Below, one piece after another: positions 1,314 to 23,575 of a stretch of 39,356 nt of DNA. The stretch's first letter is position 1; every line of letters starts with the position of its first letter. A model generated the notes under the pieces. It worked only from the letters and a program-made list of their open reading frames with translations. It was not told where the DNA came from and did not search any database. The translations under genes were made by a program, and so were the position numbers. Source of the stretch: Shigella phage SFP21B; the sequence record OQ031073. One strand, 5' to 3'.

Positions 1314-1316
1314 TTG

Positions 1317-1357: not shown

Positions 1358-1370
1358 TTAAGGAGGGCCT

Positions 1371-1937: not shown

Positions 1938-1948
1938 TAGGAGGTGAT

Positions 1949-4318: not shown

Positions 4319-4342
4319 CTCATTGAATGGCCTATAGAAACT

Positions 4343-4365
4343 ATTACACCCTCACTATAGGGACT
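4343..4365 (+). promoter_or_regulatory. phage RNAP promoter (phi13-like), ATTACACCCTCACTATAGGGACT
   Basis: 23-nt match to the window promoter consensus (core CCTCACTATAGG), flanked by inverted repeat GGCCTATAG/CTATAGGCC. Confidence 0.8.
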
Positions 4366-4393
4366 ATAGGCCCTTTAAGTTATAGGAGACTTT

Positions 4394-4864: not shown

Positions 4865-5436
4865 GTATCGGCATGGGTATCATGGCTGTAGCCGGGGCCA
4901 CTATGTCCGCATCCCAACAGGCAAAGGCTGAGGGTGCTGCTATTGACGCTCAGAACCGACAGGCTCAGGAGATGATTAAGCAGATGAACTACTCTGACGC
5001 CAACCTGAGGATGCAGGAGCGAGACCTTAAGGAACAGCAGGTCGCTGAACTGACCGAGACGACTCTGAACGGTATTCGTAATCAGGGCATGGTCCGTGCA
5101 GCAGTGGCTGAGTCTGGTCTGGAAGGTAACTCCATGAACCGCATTGAGCGCTCAGTGGAAGGCGACACCGTGAAGGAACGTGCTGGCATCACCGAAAGCT
5201 ACAACCGCGACTATGCGGCTATCTTCGGAAACCGTATTGCCAACATTGAGAACACCAAGTCTGCCATCAAGGGTCAGGCTAAAATCATCAAGACCAGCCC
5301 TCTGGCTCACGCACTTAACGTCACATCTGCTGGTATGCAGGGCTACATGGCTGGCGAGTCTCTCGCTGGGTCCAAGCCGTCAGGCGGTGCAGCTCCAATT
5401 AGTGCCGCTAAAGGCACACCTACAGGTCATAGCTAA
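4849..5436 (+). CDS. 14: internal virion protein B (gp14)
   Basis: 195 aa; matches T7 gp14 pattern (MC start, NRIERSVEGD, ESYNRDYAAIF, APISAAKGT); SD TAAGGAGGA. Confidence 0.88.
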   Translation: MCEPVSIGMGIMAVAGATMSASQQAKAEGAAIDAQNRQAQEMIKQMNYSDANLRMQERDLKEQQVAELTETTLNGIRNQGMVRAAVAESGLEGNSMNRIERSVEGDTVKERAGITESYNRDYAAIFGNRIANIENTKSAIKGQAKIIKTSPLAHALNVTSAGMQGYMAGESLAGSKPSGGAAPISAAKGTPTGHS

Positions 5437-5447
5437 CAGGAGGACCA

Positions 5448-7730
5448 ATGGCTAGTAATATCGAATCAGCTTTAGCTAACCGGACTATGGGCCGTGGTCG
5501 CGCTCCGGGCAAAGCTATCAGTGTAGACTATCAAGCGGCTAACGTTCAGGGGCAGACTGGGGACTCCGGTCTTGCCCGTGCGTTCACCAACTTCGTGGAG
5601 TCCGGCACTGGCCTGTACAAGCAGTTTCAAGAGAAGGCCAAGAACCTTGGGGATGAGCGGTCTAACGAGATTATCCGTAAGCTGACTCCCCAGCAACGGC
5701 GTGAGGCCATCCAGAATGGGACCCTTCTGTATCAGGACGACCCGTATGCGATGGAGGCACTGAAAGTCAAGACTGGTCGCAACGCTGCCTATGCGGTGGA
5801 CGATGAGATTAACGTCAAGATTCAGAACGGTGAGTTCCGCACCCGTCAGGACATGGAGGAGTACCGACACCAGCGACTTCAGGATGCCGCTAAGTCCTAT
5901 GCTGATGAGGCTGGGATTAACCCGAACGATGAGCATTTCCAGCGTGGCTTTAACGCAGACATCACGGACCGCAACGTAGCCATCTATGGGTCGTTCAATA
6001 AGTATTTCTCTAAGCAGTCCGAGAATACCGCTATGCTGAACACCCGTGTCGAGCTGAACTCGTTCCTGAACGATGGGGACCTGATGCGTTCACCTGAGGC
6101 TGGCAAGTCGTTCATGGCCTACCTACGTGATGGACTTACCACTGCCGCCATTCCGTCTGACCAAAGGGCTACCGAAGTCATCTCTCAGACGGTGCGTGAT
6201 GCAATCCAGAAGTCCGGTGGCGCTAACTTCCTCCAGCAGATTCGACAGGAACGCATCACCCTTAACGGGGTGGACGCCACGGTCGAGGAGATTGTGGGAC
6301 CTGAGGTCTTCAATGCTGCCGTGGTTGAGGCTCAAGGCACCGAGTACAAGCTGGTAGCTAAGTATCAGGAAGACTTGTCGCTGGGCGTTCAGTCTGCCCT
6401 GCTTCAGGACGACCCGACCATTGGTCTGGCCCAAATCCAGAAACTCAAGGCTCAAAACAACCAGCTCCAGCCGGGTGAGGAAATGACACCACAGCGTCAG
6501 ATGCTCATTAATGCCGAAGCCAGCCTCTTAGAGTCCGTGAAGCGCAAGTCCGCTGAGCAGGCTAAGGAGAACACTAAGCTCATCCAGACGCAGAACAAGC
6601 AACTGGTCATAGACCAAGTGTATCAGCGACGACTGGCTGGTGACAACGTGTCCACCAACTATGAGGACCTCCCGGTATCCGAGGCCACTGGCGAGTTCAA
6701 GCGTTCGGACATGAACAACTACGCTATGGGTAAACTACAGCAGATTGACCAGATGGACATCCCGCAAGCTGCGAAGGATGCTCAGAAGGTGGCACTGCTG
6801 CGGGCTGACACCAACAATGGACCGTTCCGTAATGCCTTCCAGACGCTGACTCAGGATGCTGCTGGTGAGTGGCAGGCTGCGGTAATCCGTGGTCAATACG
6901 ACCCGGACAAGATGCAGCGCTTCGAGGCTCTGCGTAAGGTCTACACTCAGGACCCTTCCAGCTTCGCGGCTCTATACCCTGACCAAGCCCAATTGTTCAC
7001 GACTTTCGAGCAGATGGACAAGATGGGTCTGGACCCTCAGACTATGATTGACGCTGACAAACAGGCTGCAAGTCAGTCCCGTGAGATGCGCATTGAGTCT
7101 GACAAAGCGTGGCAGGAGCTTAAGAACGACTCGAAGAACAAGGACCTCTCGCGGCTACCGACGAGTCTGGACGCAAGTGCTCGTAAGGTCTGGGACTCAT
7201 GGTACTACCGCACAGGTAACGCCGATGCAGCTACCCAGAACACTCAGAAGTGGCTGAACGAGAACACCGTGACTTTCAGTGATGATGGTCAGGACGGTAA
7301 GTCCATCGGCATGGTGTCCAAGCACCAGCTTATGGTAGGGGATAACCCTGAGTCTTGGCAGGTTGGTCGAGACATTATCGACACAGCCCGCAAGCAGCTC
7401 ATCAAGACTAACCCTTGGGTCGTGAACTCTCAGCTCTCTGTAGTTGAGCAGAACGGCTCGGTCTTCCTGCAAGACGCCACTGGGACCATTCGTATTCGCT
7501 ACGATAAGGAACTGGTTGGTAAACTGTACCGTGAACAGCAGAAACAAGCCGAGGATAAAGCCTACGCTGAAGCTGAACGTAAAGCCAACACCCGCGCTCG
7601 CATTGTCGAGACTAAAGCGGCTGGTGATAAACGTCGAGCGGAGCGTGAAGGTAACATCCAGAAACGCGGCGGTATGTACAGTGATGTCTCGCTGGAGGGT
7701 ATCGCAAACACCTTAATCGGTAAGGAGTAA
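5448..7730 (+). CDS. 15: internal virion protein C (gp15)
   Basis: 760 aa, size and position of T7 gp15; SD AGGAGGA. Confidence 0.88.
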   Translation: MASNIESALANRTMGRGRAPGKAISVDYQAANVQGQTGDSGLARAFTNFVESGTGLYKQFQEKAKNLGDERSNEIIRKLTPQQRREAIQNGTLLYQDDPYAMEALKVKTGRNAAYAVDDEINVKIQNGEFRTRQDMEEYRHQRLQDAAKSYADEAGINPNDEHFQRGFNADITDRNVAIYGSFNKYFSKQSENTAMLNTRVELNSFLNDGDLMRSPEAGKSFMAYLRDGLTTAAIPSDQRATEVISQTVRDAIQKSGGANFLQQIRQERITLNGVDATVEEIVGPEVFNAAVVEAQGTEYKLVAKYQEDLSLGVQSALLQDDPTIGLAQIQKLKAQNNQLQPGEEMTPQRQMLINAEASLLESVKRKSAEQAKENTKLIQTQNKQLVIDQVYQRRLAGDNVSTNYEDLPVSEATGEFKRSDMNNYAMGKLQQIDQMDIPQAAKDAQKVALLRADTNNGPFRNAFQTLTQDAAGEWQAAVIRGQYDPDKMQRFEALRKVYTQDPSSFAALYPDQAQLFTTFEQMDKMGLDPQTMIDADKQAASQSREMRIESDKAWQELKNDSKNKDLSRLPTSLDASARKVWDSWYYRTGNADAATQNTQKWLNENTVTFSDDGQDGKSIGMVSKHQLMVGDNPESWQVGRDIIDTARKQLIKTNPWVVNSQLSVVEQNGSVFLQDATGTIRIRYDKELVGKLYREQQKQAEDKAYAEAERKANTRARIVETKAAGDKRRAEREGNIQKRGGMYSDVSLEGIANTLIGKE

Positions 7731-7735
7731 TAACA

Positions 7736-10700
7736 ATGGCGACTCGTGGTATTCGCAACAATAACATCGGGAACATTCGTGTTTCCAAAGACCAGTGGGA
7801 AGGAGCTACAGGGGACGATGGGTCTTTCGTAACGTTCGACACTCCTGACTCTGGCGTCCGCGCTCTGGCGAAGAACCTGATGTCCTACGGTCGCCAAGGC
7901 TACGACTCAATCGAGAAGATTATCAACCGATGGGCACCACCTAGCGAGAACGACACTCAGTCTTACATCGACTCTGTGGTGGCTGCTACTGGCATCCCGG
8001 CGACCCAAAGTATCGACCTGACGAACCCTGATGTCCTCGCCTCTCTGTCTGAGGCTATCGGCTACCACGAGACTGGTTCCCGGTATGACCCTGAGGTCTA
8101 CAAGCTCGGAGTCTCTCGCGCCTTAAGTGGTGCGGGAGGCATCACCCAAAAGACTCCACCAGTAAGCGCTAACGTCTTCGACGCTCTCACGGAGGGCTTG
8201 AAGGCTAAACCTAAAGTCGCTCTTGGAGAGAACCTTCCGGGCGTTACTGGTATGAACATCGAAGGTCAGGAACCTGAGGCTCCTAACGAGTCTTTCGGAG
8301 AGATGTTCTATAAGTCAACTGGCGAGACGCTGGACCAAAGAGCTGACCGCTCTACATGGTTCGGCTTCGGTGGAGCTGCTGAGGCTGAAGTGAAGAACTC
8401 TCTGGTTGGCGTGGCTGTCCGCGCTGGTCAGACTGAGGACTCACTCGATGTCATTGGCGATGTGTTTAACCCTACCCGCTGGAATAACCACAAGTGGTCC
8501 CGCGAGGAGTTAGACCAGATTCGTAACGCTGGGGTACTTCCTCAGTATTACGGAGTCATCACTGGTGGTTCGCCTCAGAATCTGACCGAGCTGATTAACT
8601 TGGCGCTGGAGAACCAGAAGTTAGACGCTGAGAAGGCTAAGGCCGGGACTGGCGCTCAACTGGCGGCTGGTGTGATTGGTGCTGGCGTGGACCCACTGAC
8701 CTATGTTCCTATTGCCGGACAGGTAGGTAAAGGAGGGAAGCTGGTCAACAAGATGTTCACCGTGGCTGCTCAGTCTGGTGCGTTGGCTGGCGCGTCTGAG
8801 ATTGCTCGTACCTCTGTTGCTGGTGGTGATGCTCACGTTGCCGAGGCAATTATGGGCGGTGCTCTCTTCGGTGGTGGCATGACTGCTATCGGGGACGCTC
8901 TTGGCAAGGTTCTTGGAAAGTCGACCAATGAGTTCGCTGGTCCAGCTACACGTCTTGAGGCACGTGAGACTGCTCGCAACGTTGATGGTCAGGACCTGTC
9001 GCGTCTACCAATCCGTGAAGGAGAGGAGACCTTCAGTCACCAAGGCGTTAAGTTTGCTGACGTTCCTAACGAGCAGGGAAGTGTGCGACTGGAAGATGGT
9101 TCAATCCTTATTGGCGAGAACCCGCTGAACCCTAAGACACGTCAAGTCTTCGACGAGGTGATTGAGCCTGAACGTGCGGCTGCTGGTATCAACCTTGGAG
9201 GTCTAACCGAGATTGGACTGAAGCTCCTGAGGTCTGAGAACCCTGAGATTCGCGGACTTGCCGCTGACTTGGTGCGCTCGCCTACAGGTATGCAGTCAGG
9301 TGCGAGCGGGAAGATTGGGACTACAGCGTCAGACGTGTTCGAGCGACTTCGTGCAGTGGACCATCGGTTCTACAACGACATCGACGATGCGGTGACTGAG
9401 GCCCTGAAGGACCCGTACTTCCAGACCAACTTCAACCGTGACACTGGTGCTTTCCGTCAGGACATCTACCAGCGTGTAGCTCTGGCTATCGAGGACGGAA
9501 GTGGGAACCTGAAGTCTGAGCTGACTCCGGGAGAACTGAAGGTCTACGACCTGCTGAAGAACCAGTTCGACGCCAAGCGTGAGATGATGGAGAACCCTGC
9601 GATGTTCGGTCGGGTGGACGCTAAGTCTATCTTCCCCGGCAGCCGCTTCAAGGGGACATACGTTCCTCACGTTTACAGCAACCAGATGAAGGAGCTGTAC
9701 ATCAAGGAGCTTGGAAGCCCTGAGGCGCTGCAAGAAGCAATCAAGAAGTCGTGGCTCACGAGCTATGCGTCAAGACCTGAGGTCAAAGCGCGGGTGGACG
9801 AGGCCCTGATGGAAGCTGACCCTAATCTGACTCCAGAAGGACTTGCGGCTGCGGTCGATAAGTACGCCAACGATAAGGCTTATGGTATCTCTCACACCGA
9901 CCTCTTCGAGCGCTCGTCTGTCATGGAAGAGAACATCAACGGTCTGGTGGGTCTGGAGAACAACAACTTCCTTGAGGCTCGCAACCTGTTCGATAGCGAT
10001 ATGTCTATCATCCTGCCAAACGGTCAGCCGTTCAGTGTGAACAGTCTCCGCGAGTGGGACATGGATAAGATTGTCCCGGCGTACAACCGTCGAGTCAATG
10101 GCGACATTGCTATCATGGCTGGGACCGGGAAGACCACGAAGGAGATGAAGGACGCAGTAGAGACCCTGATGAACCGTGCGGGTGATGACGGTAAACTGAA
10201 GGGTGAAGTCTCAACACTGCGTGACACCCTGAAGATTCTGACTGGTCGTGCTCGACGTGATGGTGCAGACGATGCCGCCTTCTCTACTGTGATGCGTACC
10301 ATGACCGACCTGTCCTTCTTCGCCAAGAACGCCTATATGGGCGTACAGAACTTGACGGAGATTGGCGGTATGCTGGCACGTGGTAACGTCCGTGCGATGC
10401 TGCATGGCATTCCTATCTTCCGTGACCTCGCCTTCCGTAGTAAGAAGATGGGAGCCTCGGAGATTAAGGAACTTCACAACGTTGTCTTCGGTAAGGAGCT
10501 TGACGACTCAATCCGTCCGTCCAAACAGGATGTCATCGACCGCCTGCGAGCGTACAGCGACCTGAGTAAGCCTGTCGCCACCGCTTTAGGTTCTGCCAAG
10601 TATTACACTGGGGAACTTGCGGTCCGCTCTCCGTTTACGAAGGTCCTGAACGGCACGACGAACTACCTGCTGGATGCTGGACGTCAGGGCTTCTTGTCTG

Positions 10701-11632
10701 ACATCGTGGAACACAGCCTGACAGGAAGTAAGCGTAAGTTTGATGACCGCTGGTTGAAGACCGCTGGTATTTCGGACGAGCAGTGGAAAGGCATTAAGTC
10801 CCTCATCCGTGAGTCAGTGACTCGTGGTCCAGACGGGAAGTACACCATCAAGGATAAGAAGGCGTTCAGTCAGGACCCAAGGTCTATGGACCTCTGGCGT
10901 ATGGGTGATGCCATCGCTGACGAGACACTTCTCCGTCCGCACAAGCTGAGCAACATGGATGCCAAGGCGTATGGGCCTCTGGCGAAGACTGTCTTGCAGT
11001 TTAAGAACTTCGTCATCAAGTCCATCAACGGTCGAACCATGCGTACCTTCTACAACGCCACCAAGAACAACCGAGCGATGGACGCTGCACTGTCAACGGT
11101 CATGTCTATGGGTCTGGCTGGAATGTACTACATGGCTCAGGCGCACATCAAGGCTTACGCTATGCAGGATGGTCGTGACCGGGAGTATCTGAAACAAGCC
11201 CTTAACCCGACGATGATTGGCTATGCGGCTCTGTCCCGTAGCTCCCACTTGGGTGGGCCACTTGGGGTAGCCAACATTCTGGGTGGCATCGCTGGGTATG
11301 AGGACACTAAGATGCTCCGCTCGTCAATCCTTCCGCGCTCACCTACCGAGAAACCTGAACGTGCTATTACCTATGGTGCTGCGAAGAGTGACCCGGTGAT
11401 GAATGTGGTCGGTAACTTCCTTGAGCAGGTCCCGGCTTTCGGCTATGCTGCTAACGTTGGCGCTTCGGCTTACAACTTGGCTGGCTACCTGAAGGCTGAT
11501 ACCCGTGTGAATGAACGAGACTACATGACCGGGATGTATAACACTTTCCGCGAGCTGGTCCCTAACGACCCAATCACTCAGAAGCTGCTGTTAGGCACCT
11601 TTGAGGAGCAAGGCATTCACATCAAGGATTAA
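7736..11632 (+). CDS. 16: internal virion protein D (gp16), ejection/core protein; N-terminal ~130 aa module atypical
   Basis: 1298 aa; residues ~200 onward collinear with T7 gp16 (TWFGFGGAAEAE, GVDPLTYVPIAG, RLEARETARN, RSPTGMQSGASGK, FPGSRFKGTYVPHVY, GISHTDLFERSS, NGTTNYLLDAGRQG); N-terminus lacks the T7 transglycosylase motifs. Confidence 0.93.
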   Translation: MATRGIRNNNIGNIRVSKDQWEGATGDDGSFVTFDTPDSGVRALAKNLMSYGRQGYDSIEKIINRWAPPSENDTQSYIDSVVAATGIPATQSIDLTNPDVLASLSEAIGYHETGSRYDPEVYKLGVSRALSGAGGITQKTPPVSANVFDALTEGLKAKPKVALGENLPGVTGMNIEGQEPEAPNESFGEMFYKSTGETLDQRADRSTWFGFGGAAEAEVKNSLVGVAVRAGQTEDSLDVIGDVFNPTRWNNHKWSREELDQIRNAGVLPQYYGVITGGSPQNLTELINLALENQKLDAEKAKAGTGAQLAAGVIGAGVDPLTYVPIAGQVGKGGKLVNKMFTVAAQSGALAGASEIARTSVAGGDAHVAEAIMGGALFGGGMTAIGDALGKVLGKSTNEFAGPATRLEARETARNVDGQDLSRLPIREGEETFSHQGVKFADVPNEQGSVRLEDGSILIGENPLNPKTRQVFDEVIEPERAAAGINLGGLTEIGLKLLRSENPEIRGLAADLVRSPTGMQSGASGKIGTTASDVFERLRAVDHRFYNDIDDAVTEALKDPYFQTNFNRDTGAFRQDIYQRVALAIEDGSGNLKSELTPGELKVYDLLKNQFDAKREMMENPAMFGRVDAKSIFPGSRFKGTYVPHVYSNQMKELYIKELGSPEALQEAIKKSWLTSYASRPEVKARVDEALMEADPNLTPEGLAAAVDKYANDKAYGISHTDLFERSSVMEENINGLVGLENNNFLEARNLFDSDMSIILPNGQPFSVNSLREWDMDKIVPAYNRRVNGDIAIMAGTGKTTKEMKDAVETLMNRAGDDGKLKGEVSTLRDTLKILTGRARRDGADDAAFSTVMRTMTDLSFFAKNAYMGVQNLTEIGGMLARGNVRAMLHGIPIFRDLAFRSKKMGASEIKELHNVVFGKELDDSIRPSKQDVIDRLRAYSDLSKPVATALGSAKYYTGELAVRSPFTKVLNGTTNYLLDAGRQGFLSDIVEHSLTGSKRKFDDRWLKTAGISDEQWKGIKSLIRESVTRGPDGKYTIKDKKAFSQDPRSMDLWRMGDAIADETLLRPHKLSNMDAKAYGPLAKTVLQFKNFVIKSINGRTMRTFYNATKNNRAMDAALSTVMSMGLAGMYYMAQAHIKAYAMQDGRDREYLKQALNPTMIGYAALSRSSHLGGPLGVANILGGIAGYEDTKMLRSSILPRSPTEKPERAITYGAAKSDPVMNVVGNFLEQVPAFGYAANVGASAYNLAGYLKADTRVNERDYMTGMYNTFRELVPNDPITQKLLLGTFEEQGIHIKD

Positions 11633-11650
11633 ACCCTCACTATAGGAAAC
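11628..11650 (+). promoter_or_regulatory. phage RNAP promoter (phi17-like), ATTAAACCCTCACTATAGGAAAC
   Basis: consensus match immediately upstream of tail fiber gene. Confidence 0.85.
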
Positions 11651-11688
11651 GGGGCGCTACCACAGGTCCCATTTAACTCAACACTTAA

Positions 11689-14196
<2,508 letters not shown>

Positions 14197-14242
14197 CCGA
14201 TAACTTTGGGTCAAGGACGACCCGTTTAACAATGGAGGTATT

Positions 14243-14437
14243 ATGATTGAGTTCGACTTCAAGAATGAGGTCCTCAAAGCCTCGCCTATCGTCGGGACCG
14301 CTGCGGCTGATGGTGCCAGTCGGTTCTTCTTTGGGTTAACACTCAACGAATGGTTCTACGTCGCTGCTATCGCGTATACCGTGGTTCAGATTGGCGTACT
14401 GATTTACAAGACGATTAAGAGCGGAGGTAAGAAATGA
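14243..14437 (+). CDS. 17.5: holin (gp17.5, class II)
   Basis: 64 aa; near-identical core to T7 gp17.5 (APIVGT, FFFGLTLNEWFYVAAIAYTVVQIG); SD GGAGGT. Confidence 0.9.
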   Translation: MIEFDFKNEVLKASPIVGTAAADGASRFFFGLTLNEWFYVAAIAYTVVQIGVLIYKTIKSGGKK

Positions 14438-14697
14438 CGCAGATGGACTTAGAGAAGTTCCTGTTAATGCTGGACACCGAACGTGCTCGACTCATGTTGC
14501 AAGACCTGCGGGATGACTCTAAGCGTTCGCCACAGCTTTACAACGCCATCGAGAAGCTGCTGGCTCGTCACAACTTTGTACTGAGCAAGGTGTCGGTGGA
14601 CGAGAAGCAACTGGCTGACATGGAGGCGCTGAACCGAGAGTACGACAAGGTGCTATCAGCGACCGAGGATAATGACACCGGGTATGGTGTTCAGTAA
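14434..14697 (+). CDS. 18: terminase small subunit (gp18)
   Basis: 87 aa; T7 gp18-like (FLLMLDTERA, RSPQLYNAIEKLLARHNF); ATGA overlap with holin stop. Confidence 0.85.
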   Translation: MTQMDLEKFLLMLDTERARLMLQDLRDDSKRSPQLYNAIEKLLARHNFVLSKVSVDEKQLADMEALNREYDKVLSATEDNDTGYGVQ

Positions 14698-14700
14698 GTG

Positions 14701-14748
14701 TTAGACTCAAGGTCATTACCACTATATGTAGTGGCCTTTATGATTAAC
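14701..14748 (+). other. RNase III-type processing stem-loop (R18.5-like), copy 1 of a conserved motif
   Basis: TTAGACTCAAGGTC...GGCCTTTATGATTAAC; same motif recurs at 24351 and 31403. Confidence 0.45.
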
Positions 14749-14801
14749 ACACACTACGAGCGGTGACGCTACGTGGATTCTGAGAAATGAGGAGGGCAAC
14801 T

Positions 14802-15251
14802 ATGCTCGAACTTTTACGTAAAGCAATCCCGTGGCTGGTTGCAGGACTCCTGTTCTGCTCTGGCTATTGGGTAGCTGATAATAAGTGGGAGGCGAAGGTA
14901 AACAATGAGTACATCACGAAACTTGAGGCACGAGAGAATCAACGGGCTGCTGTCCAAGGTGAAATCGACAAAGTGTCAGCAGAGTGGCAAGACAAGATGT
15001 CCGCGCTGGAAGGCTCTACTGATAGGATTATTGCTGACCTTAACCGCGATAACAAGCGGCTGCGCATCCGAGTCAAACCCACCAGTGGAACAGTCCAGAC
15101 TGACGGTCGATGCGTCATTGATGGTTACGCCGAACTTGACGAACGAGATGCTAAGCGTCTTATCGCCATCGGACTGAAAGGTGACGAATGGATTAAGGCC
15201 CTCCAGAAGACCGTGAGAGCCATGCAGCAAGAGAAGGAGGTGAAACCTTGA
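14802..15251 (+). CDS. 18.5: Rz-like i-spanin (gp18.5)
   Basis: start chosen at second ATG (SD GAGGAGGG 5 nt upstream); [19 protein letters not shown]-terminal TM, T7 gp18.5-like ([26 protein letters not shown]); ORF track start 14787 is an in-frame alternative. Confidence 0.85.
14905..15177 (+). CDS. 18.7: Rz1-like o-spanin (gp18.7) embedded in the +1 frame of Rz
   Basis: lipoprotein signal [16 protein letters not shown]|C (lipobox) and proline-rich mature part; T7 18.7-like N-terminus MST..; functional start may be internal. Confidence 0.7.
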   Translation: MSTSRNLRHERINGLLSKVKSTKCQQSGKTRCPRWKALLIGLLLTLTAITSGCASESNPPVEQSRLTVDASLMVTPNLTNEMLSVLSPSD

Positions 15252-17011
15252 GTCAAGACTTAGCAGCGCGTCAGGCGCTTATGACTGCCCGTATGAAGGC
15301 AGACTTCGTGTTCTTCCTGTTCGTTCTGTGGAAAGCTCTGTCACTTCCCGTTCCGACTCGCTGTCAGATTGACATGGCGAAGAAGCTATCGGCTGGGGAC
15401 AACAGGCGCTTCATCTTGCAGGCGTTCCGTGGTATCGGGAAGTCCTTCATTACGTGTGCCTTCGTGGTCTGGAAGCTATGGAATAACCCGGACTTGAAGT
15501 TCATGATTGTGTCGGCCTCAAAGGAACGAGCCGATGCGAACTCAATCTTCATCAAGCGTATCATCGACCTCATGCCTCAGCTCCAAGAGTTGAAGCCTAA
15601 GCAGGGGCAGCGAGACGCAGTAATCAGCTTTGACGTAGGACCTGCCAAGCCTGACCACTCTCCTTCGGTTAAGTCCGTTGGTATCACTGGTCAGTTAACT
15701 GGTAGCCGTGCTGACATCCTGATTGCCGATGACGTAGAGGTCCCCGGTAACTCCGCTACTCAGGCAGCACGGGACCGACTGTCAGAGCTGGTGAAAGAGT
15801 TCGACGCAATCCTGAAGCCGGGTGGTACGGTTATCTATCTGGGTACTCCTCAGACCGAGATGACCTTGTATCGACAGCTTGAAGGTCGTGGTTACTCAAC
15901 TACCATCTGGCCTGCCCGCTACCCACGTGATGAGAAGGACTGGAAGTCTTACGGCGACCGTCTGGCCCCGATGCTTCAGGCCGAGCTTGAGTCCGACCCT
16001 GAGGGCTACTACTGGCTCCCTACCGATGAGGTTCGATTCGACGATGAGGACTTGAGGGAACGTGAGCTGTCTTACGGTAAGGCTGGCTTCGCTCTCCAGT
16101 TCATGCTCAACCCGAACCTTGGTGATGCCGAGAAATACCCGCTGAAGCTGCGTGACCTTATCGTAGCGGACTTGGACCCTGAGTCAAGCCCTATGGTCTA
16201 CCAGTGGCTCCCGAACCTTCAGAACAAGCGTGAGGACGTTCCTAACGTGGGACTCATGGGTGATTCCTACCACACGTATCAGACTGTAGGTTCTGCCTTC
16301 AGTTCGTACACCCAGAAGATTCTGGTCATTGACCCCAGTGGTCGTGGTAAGGATGAGACCGGGTATGCGGTACTGTATCAGCTCAACGGCTACATCTTCG
16401 TGATGGAAGCTGGTGGTATGCGCGGTGGCTATGAGGACTCTACGCTGGAGTCTCTGGCGAAGATTGGTCGCAAGTGGAAGATTAACGAGTACGTCATTGA
16501 GGGTAACTTCGGTGATGGTATGTATCTCGAACTCTTCAAGCCTGTGGCGGCTCGTATTCACCCGGCAGCAGTAACTGAGGTCAAGAGCAAGGGTCAGAAG
16601 GAACTACGCATCTGTGACGTTCTGGAGCCTATCATGGGGTCCCACAGACTCATCGTGAACTCCTCGACCATTGTGTCTGACTACCAGACTGCCGCTGACA
16701 AGGATGGCGTCCGTAACCCTATCTACTCCCTGTTCTACCAGATGACCCGTATCAGCCGTGAACGTGGGGCCTTGGCACACGATGACCGACTTGATGCTCT
16801 GGCTATCGGTGTACAGTTCTTCGTAGAGTCTATGGCTAAGGATGCCGTTAAGGGACAGCGTGAAGTCACCGAGGAGTGGCTGGAGGAACAGATGGAAGAC
16901 CCACGGAAAGGCTTTAAGTCCATCGAGACGGACTACTGGGACAATGGGGTCCGGGTCCAGTTCAATACAGATGATGACTTGGGCTTAGGGTCCTACGTAC
17001 AGTTCCACTAG
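15248..17011 (+). CDS. 19: terminase large subunit (gp19)
   Basis: 587 aa; T7 gp19-like (CQIDMAKKL, Walker [67 protein letters not shown]); apparent TTG start with SD AAGGAGGTGA 7 nt upstream, overlapping Rz stop. Confidence 0.95.
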
Positions 17012-17103
17012 CAGTTTGCATAAAGTACCGCATTAGTTGCATGAATACGCACTATGTAAGTCGGTACATAACGCTCGTAACTCTATGTATTCCTTAGGAA
17101 AAT

Positions 17104-17126
17104 CTTATACCCTCACTATAGGAAAG
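17104..17126 (+). promoter_or_regulatory. phage RNAP promoter (phiOR-like), CTTATACCCTCACTATAGGAAAG
   Basis: consensus core; located between terminase and gene 19.5 as in T7. Confidence 0.8.
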
Positions 17127-17300
17127 ACCCCCGGTTACTTATAGTAAAGACTCAATGAATAATCATATGCACACTTTATGCAAGACCTTAGGAGGCAGAC
17201 TCCTGAGTTCTTACCTAAGGCTAGCACCGATGGAGAGGGTGATTGTAATCATCACACCCTCATAACTTAAGTAGACCCTAAGCGACAGGAGGTATGTAGC

Positions 17301-17459
17301 ATGGGTAAGACCAAAGCTGTTCTCAAAGCTCTGGCGACCAATAGAGCTACATACAGGTTTCTTGCTGCTGTTCTACTTGCTGCTGGCGTTACTGCTGGAA
17401 GTCAGTGGGTCGGGTGGGTCGAGACTCTCGTATGTACTCTGGTGTCTGAGTGTAATTAA
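17301..17459 (+). CDS. 19.5: gp19.5-like small protein
   Basis: 52 aa ORF not in the supplied track (<60 aa); SD AGGAGGT; resembles T7 gp19.5 as remembered (ATYRFLAAVLLAAG ... ETLVCTLVSEC). Confidence 0.65.
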   Translation: MGKTKAVLKALATNRATYRFLAAVLLAAGVTAGSQWVGWVETLVCTLVSECN

Positions 17460-17697
17460 CGCCATCATGGTAACAATCAACGAAAGACGGACCTAAGGTC
17501 AGTTCATAGCTGACGCTGCTCTACTGACCTTAGCTACTGTAGTCAAGGACTTTAGGTAACACCTTAAGAGAAGCTCACTTAGGGTCATCCTACTCACTGG
17601 TCTACCCTAGTGTCGCCTGACCTACGGTCCTTGACCTACAGTGGCTGAGGCCTACAGTAGGGACGATGAGTTTTGGACCAAAAGTTTGAGACCACAT

Positions 17698-17900
17698 CTC
17701 ACAGTTCAAGAACCTCAAGTCTCCCCCATAGGCCCTCTTTCAGTCTCGACCAAAGGCCCTACCCCTAGACCTTCGGTCTAAACCTCAAGTCTTTGACCCG
17801 AAGTCGACCCGAAGTCTGGACCGATAGGGCCTATATCTTGTGGTTGGGACGATGGGTCGGGACTATATGTTGTGTCCTTGAGTCGCTATCTGTAACAGCC
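17698..17900 (+). repeat. inferred genome terminus and terminal-repeat region (single collapsed copy); boundaries approximate
   Basis: TCTCACAGT...CCCCCATAGG at 17698 matches the start of the T7 left end as remembered; right edge near TATCTGTAACAG...CCTACAGT by analogy to T7 terminal repeat end. Confidence 0.4.
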
Positions 17901-17904
17901 TCAA

Positions 17905-18010
17905 GTCATCACCTACAGTCAACCAGCCTACAGTCAATCCCTAAGTGATGGCCTACCTACAGTCTAACAACATACAGTCAATAGACACCATGTCGACCTA
18001 CAGTTTATCA
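17905..18010 (+). repeat. array of short direct repeats (CTACAGT heptamer, at least 5 copies) adjacent to terminal repeat
   Basis: CACCTACAGTCAA, AGCCTACAGTCAA, CCTACCTACAGTCTAA, AACATACAGTCAA, CGACCTACAGTTTA; analogous to T7 CCTAAAG repeats. Confidence 0.55.
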
Positions 18011-18217
18011 GAGTCCTAAGGTCTAGACTCACAGGTTATCACATCCGGTCTCTTTAGCAGTCAGTGACCATTGCTGACTAGGGTTATTGTTGTTGGTGTC
18101 TGCCAACTGGACTCTTATTATCAATAGTCCAGACCTAAAGTCAATCATCTGTAGTCGATAATGGTCTTCCTTATATAGTCATTGGACTACTGTATAAATT
18201 AACATGATAAATAGTTG

Positions 18218-18246
18218 TTGACAGTAGGTCTAACTTTTGGTTTAAT
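18218..18246 (+). promoter_or_regulatory. host sigma70-type early promoter (A1-like)
   Basis: TTGACA -35, 17-nt spacer containing GTCTAAC as in T7 A1, -10 TTTAAT. Confidence 0.5.
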
Positions 18247-18373
18247 AGCTTCCGTCAACACGACACGGCAACAACCGGATAGTGAAGACGCCGGGTCGGT
18301 CCGGTTAAGTAGTCAGCCTGTAAGACATACGAAAAACAGGCAACCGACAGCTAGGCGACTAGCGACAAAGTAG

Positions 18374-18403
18374 TTGACAAGCAGTAACGACTTAAAGTAG
18401 TAT
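18374..18403 (+). promoter_or_regulatory. host sigma70-type early promoter (A3-like)
   Basis: TTGACA -35, 18-nt spacer, -10 TAGTAT, followed by GTACCACAT as in T7 A3. Confidence 0.5.
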
Positions 18404-18610
18404 GTACCACATCAAAACGGTGAGGCCCAACACTGAAACGGGATAGCAAGGCGACGACAGTCATTGCGAATGCTCTTTAACAATCTGGATAAACTCTTAA
18501 TGTGCGCCGATAGCGACTAACTACAGGGTCTTTGAGTCTACCGCGAGACGGGCCTGACTTGAGCGACTGAAGGCCCTGACTGATAGTCACTAACTTAAAG
18601 GATACACATC

Positions 18611-19063
18611 ATGATTTACACTAACGAACCAGCCAACGTTTTCTATGTGCTCGTGTCTGCCGCTCGTGCTAACCTGTCTGATATGGCTAACATGGCCCGT
18701 CAGTTAGACCTTAAGGCACTGCTGCAAGCAGAACCTGAATACTACGGTGTGCTCGAATGCACTGGGCTTACAGGCTGCTACCGCGAGGAGGGACAAGAGG
18801 TCGCCACTGAAGAGAGAACCTACCGTGTGCGCTGTGAGTCCAAGGCTCAAGCTATCAACGTTGCACGACTGGCCTGCAATGACTTTGAGCAAGACTGCGT
18901 GATGGTCTACAAGTCTCAGACTCACACGGCTGGCCTGATGTTCTGCAAAGGCTTGGACGGCTACAAGACCACACGTCTGAACGGGTCATTCCAGCAAGTC
19001 GATGCACCAAAGGGCGAATGCTTCACGAAAGACGCTGAAGGGCGCTTCTGGGAGGTTGTGTAA
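18611..19063 (+). CDS. 0.3: S-adenosylmethionine lyase/hydrolase (T3 gene 0.3 type anti-restriction protein)
   Basis: 150 aa; strongly resembles T3 SAMase as remembered (EPANVFYVLVSA, TGCYRE, RVRCESKAQAINVARLACN, CVMVYKSQTHTAGL); SD AAGGA. Confidence 0.88.
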   Translation: MIYTNEPANVFYVLVSAARANLSDMANMARQLDLKALLQAEPEYYGVLECTGLTGCYREEGQEVATEERTYRVRCESKAQAINVARLACNDFEQDCVMVYKSQTHTAGLMFCKGLDGYKTTRLNGSFQQVDAPKGECFTKDAEGRFWEVV

Positions 19064-19064
19064 G

Positions 19065-19268
19065 ATGGTTAACTCATACCCTAATCACATCAAGCCATGG
19101 ATAACGGTTGATATTGAGACCGTGGGCGACTCCAAGTTTGTGACCATACGGTCAAGTATACACGTTAACAAGGAGTTCAAACTTCCGCATAGCTATAGCC
19201 TGAGCTGGGGAGACTGGGAGATTCTGCGTGATGGCGCTTTCCTCAAGTACGCAAGGAGGTTCTACTGA
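19065..19268 (+). CDS. hypothetical early protein
   Basis: 68 aa from first ATG after 0.3 stop (TAAGATG); ORF track 19002 start overlaps 0.3 and is less likely. Confidence 0.45.
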   Translation: MVNSYPNHIKPWITVDIETVGDSKFVTIRSSIHVNKEFKLPHSYSLSWGDWEILRDGAFLKYARRFY

Positions 19269-20908: not shown

Positions 20909-23575
20909 ATGAGCGTCATTCAGCTTGAGAAGCACGACTTCTCGGACATCTCCAACGCAATCGAGCCATTCAACATTCTGGCTGACCACTACGGTCAGGA
21001 CCTCGCAGTAAAACAGCTTCAGCTAGAGCATGAGGCATACACTGAAGGCGAGCGTCGTTTCATTAAGAACCTTGAGCGTCAGGCTGAGCGCGGGGAGCTG
21101 GCTGATAATCAGGTCGCAAGACCATTGATGCAAACTCTGGTCCCAAAGCTGGCGCAAGCCGTCAAGGAATGGCATGAGACCCAAGGGTCAACCCGTGGGA
21201 AACCTCAGGTCGCCTTCCTGAAGCTGAGCACTGAGAACAAGCCTCGTGAGCTTCTGGTCAAGCCTGAGTCGGTGGCAGTCATCGTCCTGAAGATTGCACT
21301 TAGCAAGCTGGTCAAGCCTGAAGGCGTACCGATTACGCCGATGGCCTCCGCTATAGGCCGCACACTGGAAGATGAAATCCGCTTCGGTCGCATCCGTGAC
21401 CAAGAGCAGGAGCACTTCAAGAAGACCATAGCTGAGAACCTGAAGAAACGCGCTGGCGTGGCCTACAAGAAAGCCTACATGCAAGCGGTCGAGGCCTCCA
21501 TGCTGGACCAGAAGCAACTGGCTGATGCGTGGGGGACTTGGAGTCCTGACGAGGCAGTACACGTAGGCATCAAGATGCTTGAGCTGCTGATTCAGTCCAC
21601 ACAACTGGTTGAGCTGAAGCGTCACAACGCCGGGAACGTAGCGTCAGACGTAGAAATGGTCCACCTGTCAGACTTCTGGGCCAAGAAGATGGCTCAGCGT
21701 GGTTACAGCCTTGCGGGTATCGCTCCGGTCTACCAACCTTGTGTCGTGCCTCCACGTCCTTGGAACTCGGTGGTCGGTGGCGGGTACTGGGCTAAAGGTC
21801 GCAGACCTCTCCCGCTGATGCGCTTAGGGTCGAAGGCCGCTATCGCTCGCTACGAGGAAGTTTACATGCCTGAAGTCTACGAGGCAGTGAACATCATTCA
21901 GCAGACTCCTTGGAAGGTGAACAAGAAGGTGCTGGACGTGGTTAACATGGTCGAGAAGCTGAACAATACTCCTATCGCAGACATCCCTCAGATGGACCCG
22001 ATGAAGCCTGAAGACTACAACGGGGAGACTGAAGAGGAGCTGAAGGCGTGGAAGAAAGCTGCTGCTGGCATCTACCGCCGCGAGAAGGCCCGACAGTCCC
22101 GCCGTTTGTCTCTGAGCTTCATCGTAGGACAGGCGAACAAGTTCTCTCAGTTCAAGGCCATTTGGTTCCCGTACAACATGGACTGGCGCGGTCGCGTCTA
22201 CGCTGTCCCGATGTTCAACCCACAAGGCAACGATATGCAGAAGGGTCTGCTGACTCTGGCAGTCGGTAAGCCAATTGGTGCGGACGGCTTCAAGTGGCTG
22301 AAGGTCCACGGTGCAAACTGTGCGGGTGTCGATAAAGTCACCTTCGAGGAGCGCATCAAGTGGGTAGAAGACAACCACGACAACATCCTCGCGGCTGCTA
22401 AGAGTCCGATGGATAGTATCGACTGGTGGGGCAAGCTGGACTCTCCGTTCTGCTTCCTCGCGTTCTGCTTCGAGTATGCTGGGGTCATGCACCACGGGCT
22501 GAGCTACTCCTGCTCTCTACCTATCGCGTTCGATGGGTCCTGCTCCGGGATTCAGCACTTCAGCGCGATGCTTCGTGACCACGTTGGTGGACATGCGGTT
22601 AACCTGACGCCAAGCGGGAAGGTTCAAGACATCTACCGCATTGTGTCCGACCGTGTGGAAGAACAGCTTAAGGAACTGCTGGTCAACGGTAGCGACAACG
22701 AGGTGAAGACTTTCGAGGACAAGAAGACAGGCGAGATTACTGAACGTATGGTCCTTGGAACTCGTGAGCTGGCCCGTCAGTGGTTGACCTACGGTATGTC
22801 ACGCTCGGTCACTAAACGCTCGGTAATGACTCTGGCATACGGGTCGAAAGAGTACGGGTTCGCGGACCAAGTGTTTGAGGACACCGTGATGCCAGCGATT
22901 GACAATGGCAAGGGTGCGATGTTCACAGACCCAAGCCAAGCGTCCCGCTTCATGGCTAAGATGATTTGGGATGCAGTAAGCGTGACCGTGGTTGCTGCGG
23001 TAGACGCGATGAAGTGGCTGCAAGGTGCGGCTAAACTGCTGGCTTCTGAGGTCAAGGACAAGAAGACCAAAGAGGTCCTGAAGCCTTGCCTCCCGGTACA
23101 CTGGGTCACGCCTGATGGGTTCCCGGTCTGGCAGGAGTACCGCAAGAAGGACACCACACGTCTGGACCTGATGTTCCTCGGTACTTTCCGTCTGCAACCT
23201 ACCGTCAACAAAAGCGGGAGCAAGGAGCTGGACAAACACAAGCAGGAGTCAGGCATTAGCCCGAACTTTGTACACTCACAAGACGGCAGTCACCTGAGGA
23301 AGACTGTGGTCCACACTCACCGCAAGTATGGCGTGATGTCCTTCGCAGTGATTCACGATAGCTTCGGGACCATCCCGGCTGACGCTGAGTTCCTGTTCAA
23401 AGGTGTCCGTGAGACGATGGTCGAGACCTACCGCGACAACGATGTGCTGCAAGACTTCTACGAGCAGTTCGCGGACCAGCTTCATGAGAGTCAGCGCGAC
23501 AAGTTGCCTGAGCTTCCGAAGCGCGGTAAACTGAACATCGAAGACATTCTGTTATCTGACTTTGCATTCGCCTAA
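20909..23575 (+). CDS. 1: single-subunit DNA-directed RNA polymerase (gp1)
   Basis: 888 aa; collinear with T7 RNAP (FSDI, PFNILADHYG, PCVVPPRPW, AIWFPYNMDWRGRVYAV, DGSCSGIQHFSAMLRD, RSVTKRSVMTLAYGS, HDSFGT, SDFAFA C-terminus). Confidence 0.98.
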   Translation: MSVIQLEKHDFSDISNAIEPFNILADHYGQDLAVKQLQLEHEAYTEGERRFIKNLERQAERGELADNQVARPLMQTLVPKLAQAVKEWHETQGSTRGKPQVAFLKLSTENKPRELLVKPESVAVIVLKIALSKLVKPEGVPITPMASAIGRTLEDEIRFGRIRDQEQEHFKKTIAENLKKRAGVAYKKAYMQAVEASMLDQKQLADAWGTWSPDEAVHVGIKMLELLIQSTQLVELKRHNAGNVASDVEMVHLSDFWAKKMAQRGYSLAGIAPVYQPCVVPPRPWNSVVGGGYWAKGRRPLPLMRLGSKAAIARYEEVYMPEVYEAVNIIQQTPWKVNKKVLDVVNMVEKLNNTPIADIPQMDPMKPEDYNGETEEELKAWKKAAAGIYRREKARQSRRLSLSFIVGQANKFSQFKAIWFPYNMDWRGRVYAVPMFNPQGNDMQKGLLTLAVGKPIGADGFKWLKVHGANCAGVDKVTFEERIKWVEDNHDNILAAAKSPMDSIDWWGKLDSPFCFLAFCFEYAGVMHHGLSYSCSLPIAFDGSCSGIQHFSAMLRDHVGGHAVNLTPSGKVQDIYRIVSDRVEEQLKELLVNGSDNEVKTFEDKKTGEITERMVLGTRELARQWLTYGMSRSVTKRSVMTLAYGSKEYGFADQVFEDTVMPAIDNGKGAMFTDPSQASRFMAKMIWDAVSVTVVAAVDAMKWLQGAAKLLASEVKDKKTKEVLKPCLPVHWVTPDGFPVWQEYRKKDTTRLDLMFLGTFRLQPTVNKSGSKELDKHKQESGISPNFVHSQDGSHLRKTVVHTHRKYGVMSFAVIHDSFGTIPADAEFLFKGVRETMVETYRDNDVLQDFYEQFADQLHESQRDKLPELPKRGKLNIEDILLSDFAFA

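What the first reader, a model, noticed from the sequence alone, without database searches (positions are those of the whole stretch)
17460..18610. Window is a circular permutation; physical genome end and repeat-rich terminal region lie mid-window
The window begins at the capsid ATG and ends in the gene 10 leader, so the two window ends join. The only long non-coding stretch (17460-18610) holds TCTCACAGT...CCCCCATAGG at 17698, matching the T7 left terminus as remembered, then a probable terminal repeat, tandem GACCCGAAGTC x2 (17798-17819), two ACCTCAAGTCT copies, at least five CTACAGT heptamers (17905-18010), two sigma70-type promoters, and CTCTTTAACAATCTGG (18474-18489), identical to a sequence near the T7 0.3 RNase III site. 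The linear genome therefore probably starts near 17698, with the terminal repeat collapsed to one copy.
Basis: partly seen in the sequence, partly recalled or inferred. Interest (0 to 1): 0.45.

Follow-up and report, generated by a model that had tools for sequence, protein, structure and literature searches.

The report
T7-type genome ends, mid-window
The window is a complete T7-like (K1F-group) phage genome written from an arbitrary start, so its true DNA ends, one collapsed copy of a 191-base terminal repeat and the early-gene control signals sit mid-window; this is correct but ordinary, well-described phage biology.

Summary

**Permutation.** The window is a Kayfunavirus-like (T7 group) genome that starts at the capsid ATG. 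Its end-to-start join is contiguous in 212 phage records.

**Terminal repeat.** The repeat is window 17697-17887 (191 bp) and is present once, so predicted virion DNA is 39,547 bp.
- The left end, TCTCACAGT at 17697, is base 1 of 19 of 60 sampled related records. These include T7, T3, phiYeO3-12, Ro45lw, Pisces (PhageTerm) and SH4, whose ends were mapped by run-off sequencing; K1F, checked separately, also starts there.
- In all eight reference phages with a defined repeat, the repeat is followed at once by ATCTGT(T/A). In T7 this is the concatemer-junction pause signal for the phage RNA polymerase.

**Flanks.**
- Oriented CCTACAGT-type short repeats lie on both sides of the repeat.
- An 11-bp inverted repeat, 184 bp to the left, is invariant in 11 relatives.
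- A phiOR-type phage promoter sits at 17104-17126.

**Early control region.** To the right are homologues of the T7 host promoters A1 and A3, with no A2 and no phiOL, as in K1F-like relatives. The "T7-identical" 16-mer contains the rrn-type boxA sequence (18472-18483). It is followed by the R0.3 RNase III hairpin (18511-18592) and a T3-type SAM hydrolase gene.

Nothing here is new in kind. The physical ends are inferred by homology, not measured.

The parts
17104..17126 (+). Phage-RNA-polymerase promoter, the positional homologue of T7/T3 phiOR. It is the last phage promoter before the genome end.
   Evidence: The core ACCCTCACTATAGG matches exactly at 17109-17122. It is one of 12 plus-strand promoter-type matches (9 exact, 3 with 1-2 mismatches), and none lies between it and 20821. 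It aligns with T7 phiOR, and T3 annotates phiOR at the same place.
17301..17459 (+). Gene 19.5 (52 aa), the last gene of the genome.
   Evidence: ORF. It shows weak but positional similarity to T7 gp19.5 (30% over 33 aa). It is 97% conserved in 11 relatives. The same 52-aa gp19.5 is described for SH4 and Dev2.
17493..17533 (.). Perfect 11-bp inverted repeat CTAAGGTCAGT / ACTGACCTTAG with a 19-nt loop, centred 184 bp left of the repeat. It is a candidate hairpin site for concatemer processing.
   Evidence: Found, and it forms in the DNA fold. Both arms are 100% conserved in 11 relatives while the loop is 75% conserved, and MBBL139 has a different loop. T7 has an imperfect palindrome at the aligned position, centred at nt 39588, 190 bp left of its repeat. 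T3 has the same palindrome with paired changes.
17491..17660 (+). Short-repeat array left of the repeat, the counterpart of T7 SRR. It holds ACCTNNRGTC / CCTACAGT units at 17491, 17620, 17635 and 17651, plus an inverted copy at 17548-17557.
   Evidence: CCTNNRGT occurs 4 times against 0.40 expected.
17697..17887 (+). Direct terminal repeat, a single collapsed copy of 191 bp. 17697 is the mature left end and 17887 the mature right end.
   Evidence: Alignment A1 with both ends of Ro45lw and MBBL139. Repeat-length and boundary table for 7 reference phages, and K1F. 19 of 60 sampled related records begin within 3 nt of 17697. No second copy in the window.
17888..17894 (+). ATCTGTA, abutting the right edge of the repeat. 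It is the counterpart of the T7 concatemer-junction class II pause/termination signal ATCTGTT.
   Evidence: ATCTGT(T/A) is the first sequence after the repeat in T7, T3, K1F, Ro45lw, MBBL139, Pisces, SH4, MopsHU1 and the window. It is 100% conserved in 11 relatives. The T7 CJ class II signal is described in bioRxiv 10.64898/2026.02.12.705533.
17897..18022 (+). Short-repeat array right of the repeat, the counterpart of T7 SRL. CCTACAGT sits at 17912, 17927, 17956 and 17997, with related units at 17899, 17972 and 18015, all in one orientation.
   Evidence: Four CCTACAGT copies against 0.02 expected, and none on the minus strand.
18117..18144 (-). Leftward sigma-70-like site (TTGACT, 16 nt, GATAAT). 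It is possibly the counterpart of the leftward promoter A0 of T7/T3.
   Evidence: 10 of 12 consensus matches. Both hexamers are kept in Ro45lw and MBBL139 with spacer changes, but the site is absent from K1F. It is not at the T7/T3 A0 position, so this is only a lead.
18147..18153 (+). Second plus-strand ATCTGTA, at the place where T7 and T3 carry promoter phiOL.
   Evidence: It is present in Ro45lw and MBBL139 but not K1F, and 92% conserved in 11 relatives. Its function is unknown.
18218..18246 (+). Host (sigma-70) early promoter, the homologue of T7/T3 A1. It has TTGACA, a 17-nt spacer and TTTAAT preceded by TGG (extended -10 type).
   Evidence: It aligns with the annotated A1 of T7 and T3. 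The -35 is 97% conserved. The consensus scan missed it because the -10 lacks A at position 2.
18374..18403 (+). Host early promoter, the homologue of T7/T3 A3. It has TTGACA, an 18-nt spacer and TAGTAT.
   Evidence: Found by the scan with 10 of 12 matches. It aligns with the annotated A3 of T7 and T3, including the downstream GTACCACAT. The -35 is 100% conserved.
18472..18483 (+). boxA-type element GCTCTTTAACAA within the early leader RNA.
   Evidence: The 16-mer CTCTTTAACAATCTGG, which contains most of the element, is identical in T7 (nt 814-829) and T3, and the element is 99% conserved in 11 relatives. The same 12-mer occurs in a primer for an enhancer that PMC2176067 calls 'the boxA sequence of rrnB'.
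18511..18592 (+). RNase III processing hairpin R0.3, with a longer apical part than in T3, T7 or K1F.
   Evidence: It is homologous to the stem-loop annotated as 'RNase III recognition site R0.3' in T3 (822-875). The consensus fold of six phages keeps the lower stem, with both-sided changes at 4 pairs. The folding energy alone is not significant.
18611..19063 (+). Gene 0.3, the first gene of the genome, encoding a T3-type S-adenosylmethionine hydrolase (anti-restriction).
   Evidence: 65% identical to T3 gp0.3. PHROG 2226 matches at E=3e-47.

Best explanation
The 1.15-kb non-coding stretch is the concatemer junction plus early control region of a T7-group phage of the K1F type (Kayfunavirus). 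It appears mid-window because the assembly was circularised and opened at the capsid gene.

**Ends.** Mature virion DNA is predicted to run from 17697 rightwards, around the window join, to 17887. It would carry the 191-bp segment 17697-17887 at both ends, for 39,547 bp in total.

**Infection** (by analogy with T7; from my own knowledge, not looked up in the library).
- The left end enters the cell first.
- The two host promoters lie 522 and 678 bp from that end (A1-like at 18218, A3-like at 18374). They are transcribed by E. coli RNA polymerase, which also helps draw the DNA in.
- The leader RNA carries an rrn-type boxA.
- RNase III cuts the leader at the R0.3 hairpin, giving the mRNA for the SAM hydrolase that disarms host restriction.

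**Late in infection.**
- Genomes are joined head to tail through the repeat, so each junction holds one copy, exactly as in the window.
- The phage RNA polymerase, starting at the phiOR-type promoter (17104), reads through gene 19.5 and the repeat. It is expected to pause at ATCTGTA (17888), marking the junction for the terminase.
- The conserved inverted repeat 184 bp to the left is the likely hairpin site used to regenerate the second repeat copy.

**What is shown and what is inferred.** Shown here: the permutation, the homology and boundaries of the repeat, the conservation of each element, and the R0.3 pairing. Inferred from T7/T3 biology: pausing, hairpin priming, boxA function and promoter activity. 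The role of the flanking heptamer arrays is, to my knowledge, unknown even in T7.
For: **Permutation.** The joined window ends align in one piece in 212 records. The window is collinear with SFP20 (95.6%) and with the SH4 right arm (95.7%).

**Left end.** TCTCACAGT is unique in the window. It aligns to base 1 of 19 of 60 sampled related records. Annotated repeats include Ro45lw 190 bp, Pisces 190 bp by PhageTerm, SH4 191 bp, MopsHU1 195 bp and T3 231 bp. The SH4/SH5 ends were mapped by run-off sequencing of virion DNA (PMC4925675).

**Right boundary.** Both ends of Ro45lw and MBBL139 stop opposite window 17887. The repeat is followed by ATCTGT(T/A) in all eight reference phages.

**Gene context.** Terminase, 19.5 and then 0.3, kinase and RNA polymerase are in T7 order.

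**Landmarks.** The region aligns landmark by landmark with T7 and T3.

**Conservation in 11 relatives**:
- inverted-repeat arms 100%, against 75% for the loop;
- ATCTGTA 100%;
- A3 -35 100%;
- boxA 99%;
- last 36 bp before the repeat 97%;
- first 35 bp of the repeat 95%.

**R0.3.** The lower stem is kept with compensatory changes.
Against: - No reads or virion DNA were available, so the ends of this particular phage are inferred by homology only.
- The pause motif differs from T7's ATCTGTT at its seventh base. That motif is described as strictly conserved for T7 RNA polymerase, so pausing by this phage's polymerase is untested.
- The A1-like -10 (TTTAAT) lacks the usual A at position 2.
- The R0.3 fold is no more stable than shuffled sequence (z = -0.3 to -1.7).
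- Rfam has no matching family.
- The link between the inverted repeat and the T7 'hairpin end' rests on position and on my recollection of Chung, Nardone & Hinkle 1990, which I could not read. In T7 a simple hairpin scan ranks a different palindrome higher.
Confidence: 0.9

Rival explanations
1. The ends are of the T7 type, but the repeat boundaries in this phage differ from 17697-17887. For example, the repeat could be shorter, as in K1F (178-179 bp), or longer, as in T3 (231 bp).
For: Repeat length varies in the group from 160 to 242 bp. The interior of the repeat is its least conserved part, at 81-87%. The Dev2 record stops about 17 bases earlier in the alignment.
Against: Both boundary sequences are conserved: TCTCACAGT on the left, and GAGTC(N)CT followed by ATCTGTA on the right. 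They bound the repeat in every reference genome, including the closest ones with mapped ends.
Confidence: 0.06
2. The stretch is only an intergenic regulatory or origin region. The virion DNA would be circularly permuted (headful packaging), or would end elsewhere, so the mid-window 'end' would be a homology relic.
For: Many related records are deposited as circular or arbitrarily opened, with no repeat annotated, for example SFPH2, EP1, GW1 and SFP20. The short iterated repeats superficially resemble origin iterons.
Against: The terminase is of the T7 gp19 type. Relatives with 83-98% identical repeat sequence have experimentally or computationally mapped fixed ends at these positions. The arbitrary openings of other records are explained by assembly practice. 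The processing-associated motifs are invariant.
Confidence: 0.03
3. The heptamer arrays and the inverted repeat are binding sites for a host or phage protein unrelated to packaging. Possible roles are control of DNA entry or nucleoid-protein binding at the leading end.
For: The arrays are strongly oriented and enriched on both sides of the repeat. To my knowledge their function is unknown even in T7, and the leading end is the first DNA seen by the cell.
Against: Nothing here tests this directly. The array sequences are among the less conserved parts (78%), whereas the elements next to the cut sites are invariant. This rival concerns a sub-feature and is compatible with the main explanation.
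Confidence: 0.15

Closest known systems
Genome ends of K1F-like phages (genus Kayfunavirus): K1F, SH4/SH5, Ro45lw, Pisces, Dev2
   Same: - The first 35 nt are identical or nearly so (TCTCACAGTTCAAGAACCTCAAGTCTCCCCCATAGG).
- The repeat is 178-195 bp and is followed by ATCTGTA.
- The 11-bp inverted repeat lies 184-185 bp to the left.
- There are only two host early promoters and no phiOL.
- boxA and the R0.3 hairpin are present.
   Different: - The non-coding stretch is only 63-91% identical to individual relatives.
- The apical part of the R0.3 hairpin is longer than in K1F.
- Gene 0.3 is a T3-type SAM hydrolase, whereas K1F has an ocr-like gene and Ro45lw an unrelated gene.
- The record is permuted and the repeat is not duplicated.
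Bacteriophage T7 concatemer junction and early region (NC_001604)
   Same: The order of elements is the same:
- phiOR, gene 19.5, palindrome, short repeats;
- repeat starting TCTCACAGT;
- ATCTGT pause motif, short repeats;
- A1, A3, identical boxA 16-mer, R0.3, gene 0.3.

Distances from the left end are similar (A1 -35 at 522 against 462, 0.3 ATG at 915 against 925).
   Different: - The repeat is 191 bp against 160 bp.
- The heptamer is CCTACAGT against CCTAAAG.
- The pause motif is ATCTGTA against ATCTGTT.
- There is no A2 and no phiOL.
- Gene 0.3 encodes a SAM hydrolase rather than Ocr.
- Overall nucleotide identity is low outside the landmarks.
Bacteriophage T3 ends and early region (NC_003298)
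   Same: - The left end is similar (TCTCATAGTTCAAGAACC...).
- ATCTGTT follows the repeat.
- boxA is present, and the annotated R0.3 stem-loop is homologous to 18511-18592.
- The SAM hydrolase gene 0.3 is 65% identical.
   Different: - The T3 repeat is 231 bp.
- T3 has three early promoters plus phiOL.
- The promoter specificity of its RNA polymerase differs.

Membership tests
T7-group (Studiervirinae) short direct terminal repeat / concatemer junction | Lies between the last gene (19.5, downstream of terminase gene 19) and the first gene (0.3). | tested here: met
   Terminase at 15248-17011, gene 19.5 at 17301-17459 and gene 0.3 at 18611-19063.
T7-group (Studiervirinae) short direct terminal repeat / concatemer junction | Conserved left-terminal sequence TCTCA(C/T)AGT at the first base of the repeat. 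| tested here: met
   The sequence is unique at 17697. It aligns with base 1 of T7, T3, K1F, SH4, Ro45lw, Pisces, MopsHU1 and others.
T7-group (Studiervirinae) short direct terminal repeat / concatemer junction | A repeat of roughly 150-250 bp whose right edge abuts the ATCTGTT-type pause signal for the phage RNA polymerase. | tested here: met
   The repeat is 191 bp. ATCTGTA sits at 17888-17894, as in all K1F-like references, while T7 and T3 have ATCTGTT. The activity of the variant motif was not tested.
T7-group (Studiervirinae) short direct terminal repeat / concatemer junction | Oriented arrays of short repeats on both flanks of the repeat (SRR and SRL). | tested here: met
   CCTACAGT-type units are enriched at 17491-17660 and 17897-18022.
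T7-group (Studiervirinae) short direct terminal repeat / concatemer junction | A phage promoter (phiOR) directing transcription across the junction. | tested here: met
   The promoter at 17104-17126 has an exact core match and aligns with T7 phiOR.
T7-group (Studiervirinae) short direct terminal repeat / concatemer junction | The same sequence is physically present at both ends of virion DNA (sharp termini, about 2x read depth). | not testable with these tools
   No reads or virion DNA are available. The window holds one copy only.
T7/T3 early control region | Strong host promoters A1, A2 and A3 within the first ~850 bp of the left end. | tested here: inconclusive
   A1 and A3 homologues are present, 522 and 678 bp from the end. 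A2 is absent through a deletion of about 120 bp relative to T7/T3, as in K1F, Ro45lw and MBBL139. Promoter activity was not tested.
T7/T3 early control region | Phage promoter phiOL between the repeat and A1. | tested here: not met
   No phage-promoter match lies between 17122 and 20821. It is also absent in K1F, Ro45lw and MBBL139.
T7/T3 early control region | boxA sequence and the RNase III site R0.3 in the leader of gene 0.3. | tested here: met
   GCTCTTTAACAA lies at 18472-18483. The hairpin at 18511-18592 is homologous to T3's annotated R0.3 and shows 4 covarying pairs. Cleavage was not tested.
Genus Kayfunavirus (K1F-like phages) | High nucleotide identity and collinearity with members of the genus. 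| tested here: met
   Over the 25-kb query (window 1-25000) identity is 95.6% to SFP20 and 93% to SFPH2; over the 71% of that query that SH4 covers (window 1-17828) it is 95.7%. The best hits are all classified as Kayfunavirus.

The most novel reading that the evidence does not exclude
In K1F-like phages the two invariant elements that bracket the repeat may be the actual cis-acting signals for cutting concatemers and duplicating the repeat. These elements are the 11-bp inverted repeat 184 bp to its left and ATCTGTA immediately to its right.

If so, ATCTGTA would be a functional variant of the class II pause signal that T7's 'strictly conserved' ATCTGTT rule does not predict. The second ATCTGTA, at the place where T7/T3 have phiOL, might then serve as a second pause point in a lineage that has lost phiOL and A2.
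Probability: 0.3. Interest if true: 0.3.

Novelty: already known. Interest (0 to 1): 0.1.

Why it matters
The value is mainly practical. It tells an annotator how to orient this genome: start at 17697 and add a second copy of 17697-17887, giving 39,547 bp. It also shows that the short 'hypothetical protein' ORFs some related records call in this stretch (for example 7 in CHRF_30116.1) overlie conserved non-coding signals and look like annotation artefacts.

Biologically it shows that the T7 end architecture is kept element by element in a K1F-like phage, with three lineage-typical differences: no A2, no phiOL, and ATCTGTA instead of ATCTGTT. It opens no new question.

Tried and rejected
- **Rfam.** A scan of 16900-19100 at E<=1 gave no match. 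Rfam matched no family for these phage leader elements.
- **Terminators.** The consensus scan found none in the region.
- **A1 promoter.** The consensus promoter scan missed it because its -10 lacks A at position 2. It was recovered by alignment instead.
- **R0.3 stability.** Single-sequence RNA folds of the R0.3 region were no more stable than shuffles, so I relied on homology to T3's annotated site and on covariation.
- **Gene 19.5 scan.** My PHROG scan used the wrong frame (17302-17460 instead of 17301-17459). Its '0 families' result should be ignored; one search gives the comparison in the right frame.
- **Literature.** Searches for a statement that T7 carries boxA, and for details of the T7 hairpin intermediate, found nothing usable. 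Those points rest on the rrnB boxA primer sequence and on my own recollection.
- **Hairpin scan.** A simple hairpin scan ranks another palindrome first in T7. The equivalence of the window's inverted repeat with the T7 hairpin site is therefore positional only.
- **Rejected readings.** Headful or permuted packaging, and a second repeat copy elsewhere in the window, were both considered and rejected.
Full report
**What the window is.** The window carries the T7 gene order:
- capsid gene at 1-1050;
- tail and internal-virion genes;
- terminase large subunit at 15248-17011;
- then a SAM hydrolase (18611-19063), a protein kinase and a single-subunit RNA polymerase (20909-23575), through to the head-assembly gene at 38346-39230.

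It also holds 12 plus-strand promoter-type matches to the core ACCCTCACTATAGG, 9 of them exact. Its closest records are Kayfunavirus members. Over window 1-25000 it is 95.6% identical to Shigella phage SFP20, which is opened at the same capsid ATG. Over window 1-17828 it is 95.7% identical to Citrobacter phage SH4.

**Check of the observation.**
- TCTCACAGT is at 17697 and is unique in the window.
- CCCCCATAGG is at 17723.
- GACCCGAAGTC is at 17795 and 17806.
- ACCTCAAGTCT is at 17712 and 17782.
- CTACAGT is at 17913, 17928, 17957 and 17998, with ATACAGT at 17972. Two more copies lie at 17636 and 17652.
- CTCTTTAACAATCTGG is at 18473 and is identical to T7 nt 814-829.
- TTGACA is at 18218 and 18374.

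Gene 19.5 ends at 17459 and gene 0.3 starts at 18611. So 17460-18610 is non-coding and is the longest such stretch. The heptamers are not chance: 6 of the 8 plus-strand CCTACAGT copies lie in 17635-18004, and 4 fall in 148 bp where 0.02 are expected (the motif was defined after looking).

**Circular permutation.** I joined the last 300 and first 300 bases of the window. The join aligns as a single piece in 212 phage records, for example GW1 at 98.5% over all 600 bases, spanning the head-assembly gene, the promoter and leader, and the capsid gene.

**Where the genome ends are.**
- Aligned with both ends of Ro45lw (annotated 190-bp terminal repeats) and MBBL139 (identical 190 bp at both ends), the left ends start opposite window 17697 and the right ends stop opposite 17887.
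- A search with 17697-17887 found 272 records. In an evenly spaced sample of 60, 19 begin within 3 nt of window 17697. These include T3, T7M, phiYeO3-12, phiSG-JL2, EcoDS1, Vec13, SH4, Pisces and MopsHU1.
- The annotated repeats are 190 bp (Pisces, by PhageTerm), 191 bp (SH4), 195 bp (MopsHU1) and 231 bp (T3). K1F's record has 178 bp at both ends.
- For SH4 and SH5 the ends were mapped by run-off Sanger sequencing of virion DNA (PMC4925675).
- In all eight reference genomes the repeat is immediately followed by ATCTGT(T/A), and the window has ATCTGTA at 17888.
- No second copy of the segment exists in the window.

The repeat is therefore 17697-17887 (191 bp), collapsed to one copy, and the predicted virion DNA is 39,356 + 191 = 39,547 bp.

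**Anatomy left of the repeat.**
- A phage promoter at 17104-17126 aligns with T7 phiOR.
- After gene 19.5 comes a perfect 11-bp inverted repeat (17493-17503 / 17523-17533) centred 184 bp left of the repeat.
- Its arms are invariant in 11 relatives, while its loop is 75% conserved and is replaced in MBBL139.
- T7 has an imperfect palindrome at the aligned position, centred at nt 39588, 190 bp left of its repeat. T3 has the same palindrome with paired changes.
- From my own recollection, this is about where Chung, Nardone & Hinkle (1990) mapped the hairpin end seen on T7 concatemers. I could not read that paper. A citing paper only confirms that a hairpin containing the repeat is found during T7 infection (PMC4281155).
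- Oriented ACCTNNRGTC / CCTACAGT units follow, and the last 36 bp before the repeat are 97% conserved.

**Anatomy right of the repeat.**
- ATCTGTA (17888-17894) is invariant in 11 relatives.
- In T7 the corresponding sequence at the concatemer junction is a class II pause/termination signal for T7 RNA polymerase, with a strictly conserved seven-base motif (bioRxiv 10.64898/2026.02.12.705533). From my own knowledge that motif is ATCTGTT, and pausing there is linked to concatemer processing. The K1F-like phages and the window differ at its seventh base.
- Next comes the heptamer array (17897-18022).
- A leftward sigma-70-like site (18144 to 18117) is conserved in two relatives.
- A second ATCTGTA (18147) sits at the place where T7 and T3 carry phiOL, which is absent here.

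**Early control region.** By alignment with the annotated T7 and T3 records:
- 18218-18246 is the A1 homologue (TTGACA, 17 nt, TGG-TTTAAT);
- 18374-18403 is the A3 homologue (TTGACA, 18 nt, TAGTAT).

A2 is missing through a deletion of about 120 bp. The same two-promoter, no-phiOL layout is found in K1F, Ro45lw and MBBL139, so it is normal for the genus.

That sequence is 99% conserved. It occurs in a primer for an enhancer that PMC2176067 describes as the boxA sequence of rrnB. It is therefore best read as an rrn-type boxA in the early leader, upstream of the RNase III site rather than part of it.

The RNase III site itself is the hairpin 18511-18592. It is homologous to the stem-loop annotated R0.3 in T3. 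Its lower stem is kept in six phages, with both-sided changes at 4 pairs, and its apical part is variable (56% conserved). Stability alone is unremarkable, and Rfam has no matching family.

**Mechanism.** The best reading is the T7 scheme described under the best explanation.
- The left end at 17697 enters first.
- Host polymerase starts at the A1 and A3 homologues.
- The leader carries boxA and is cut at R0.3 to release the SAM hydrolase mRNA.
- Late in infection, head-to-tail concatemers with one repeat per junction are transcribed from phiOR.
- The polymerase is expected to pause at ATCTGTA, the terminase cuts, and the repeat is duplicated, possibly through the conserved hairpin.

Shown here are the structure, homology, boundaries and conservation. 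The activities are inferred from T7 and T3.

**Verdict.** The feature is a textbook T7-group concatemer junction and early region in its K1F-type form, and related records already annotate it. Interest is low. The use is in orienting and annotating the genome correctly.

Noticed in passing
window 18595-18615, compared with L012 (K1F), L001 (Ro45lw) and L004 (MBBL139): The first gene differs between close relatives. The window, MBBL139, SFP20 and GW1 carry a T3-type SAM hydrolase, K1F an ocr-like gene, and Ro45lw an unrelated ORF. K1F shares the window's sequence through the R0.3 hairpin and partly into the ribosome-binding site and then diverges, whereas Ro45lw diverges right after the hairpin. 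This looks like module exchange of the anti-restriction gene at a fixed breakpoint.
   Followed up: partly
window 18147-18153: A second plus-strand ATCTGTA, preceded by C, sits where T7/T3 have promoter phiOL. It is conserved in Ro45lw and MBBL139 but not in K1F. Only three plus-strand ATCTGT[AT] copies occur in the whole window, and two of them lie within 260 bp here.
   Followed up: partly
window 18117-18144, minus strand: A leftward sigma-70-like site (TTGACT, 16 nt, GATAAT) has both hexamers conserved and a variable spacer in Ro45lw and MBBL139. It may be a counterpart of the leftward promoter A0 of T7/T3, but it lies at a different position.
   Followed up: partly
related records L015, L017, L019 and L020, matching window 17460-18610: Several GenBank relatives annotate short 'hypothetical protein' CDSs across this stretch, up to seven in CHRF_30116.1. 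They overlie the terminal repeat, promoters and boxA. They look like gene-caller artefacts in non-coding DNA.
   Followed up: no
records OR786095.1 (L003/L004) and PQ520054.1: Records named 'Staphylococcus phage MBBL139' and 'Enterococcus phage IME_EF3' are Kayfunavirus-type sequences close to this enterobacterial phage. The host labels are probably wrong, or the samples were contaminated.
   Followed up: no
window 17673-17685: A small palindrome, TTTTGG-A-CCAAAA, lies 12-24 bp left of the left-end cut site. It is identical in K1F, Ro45lw and MBBL139, and the surrounding 36 bp are 97% conserved. T7 has no such palindrome at that place.
   Followed up: no
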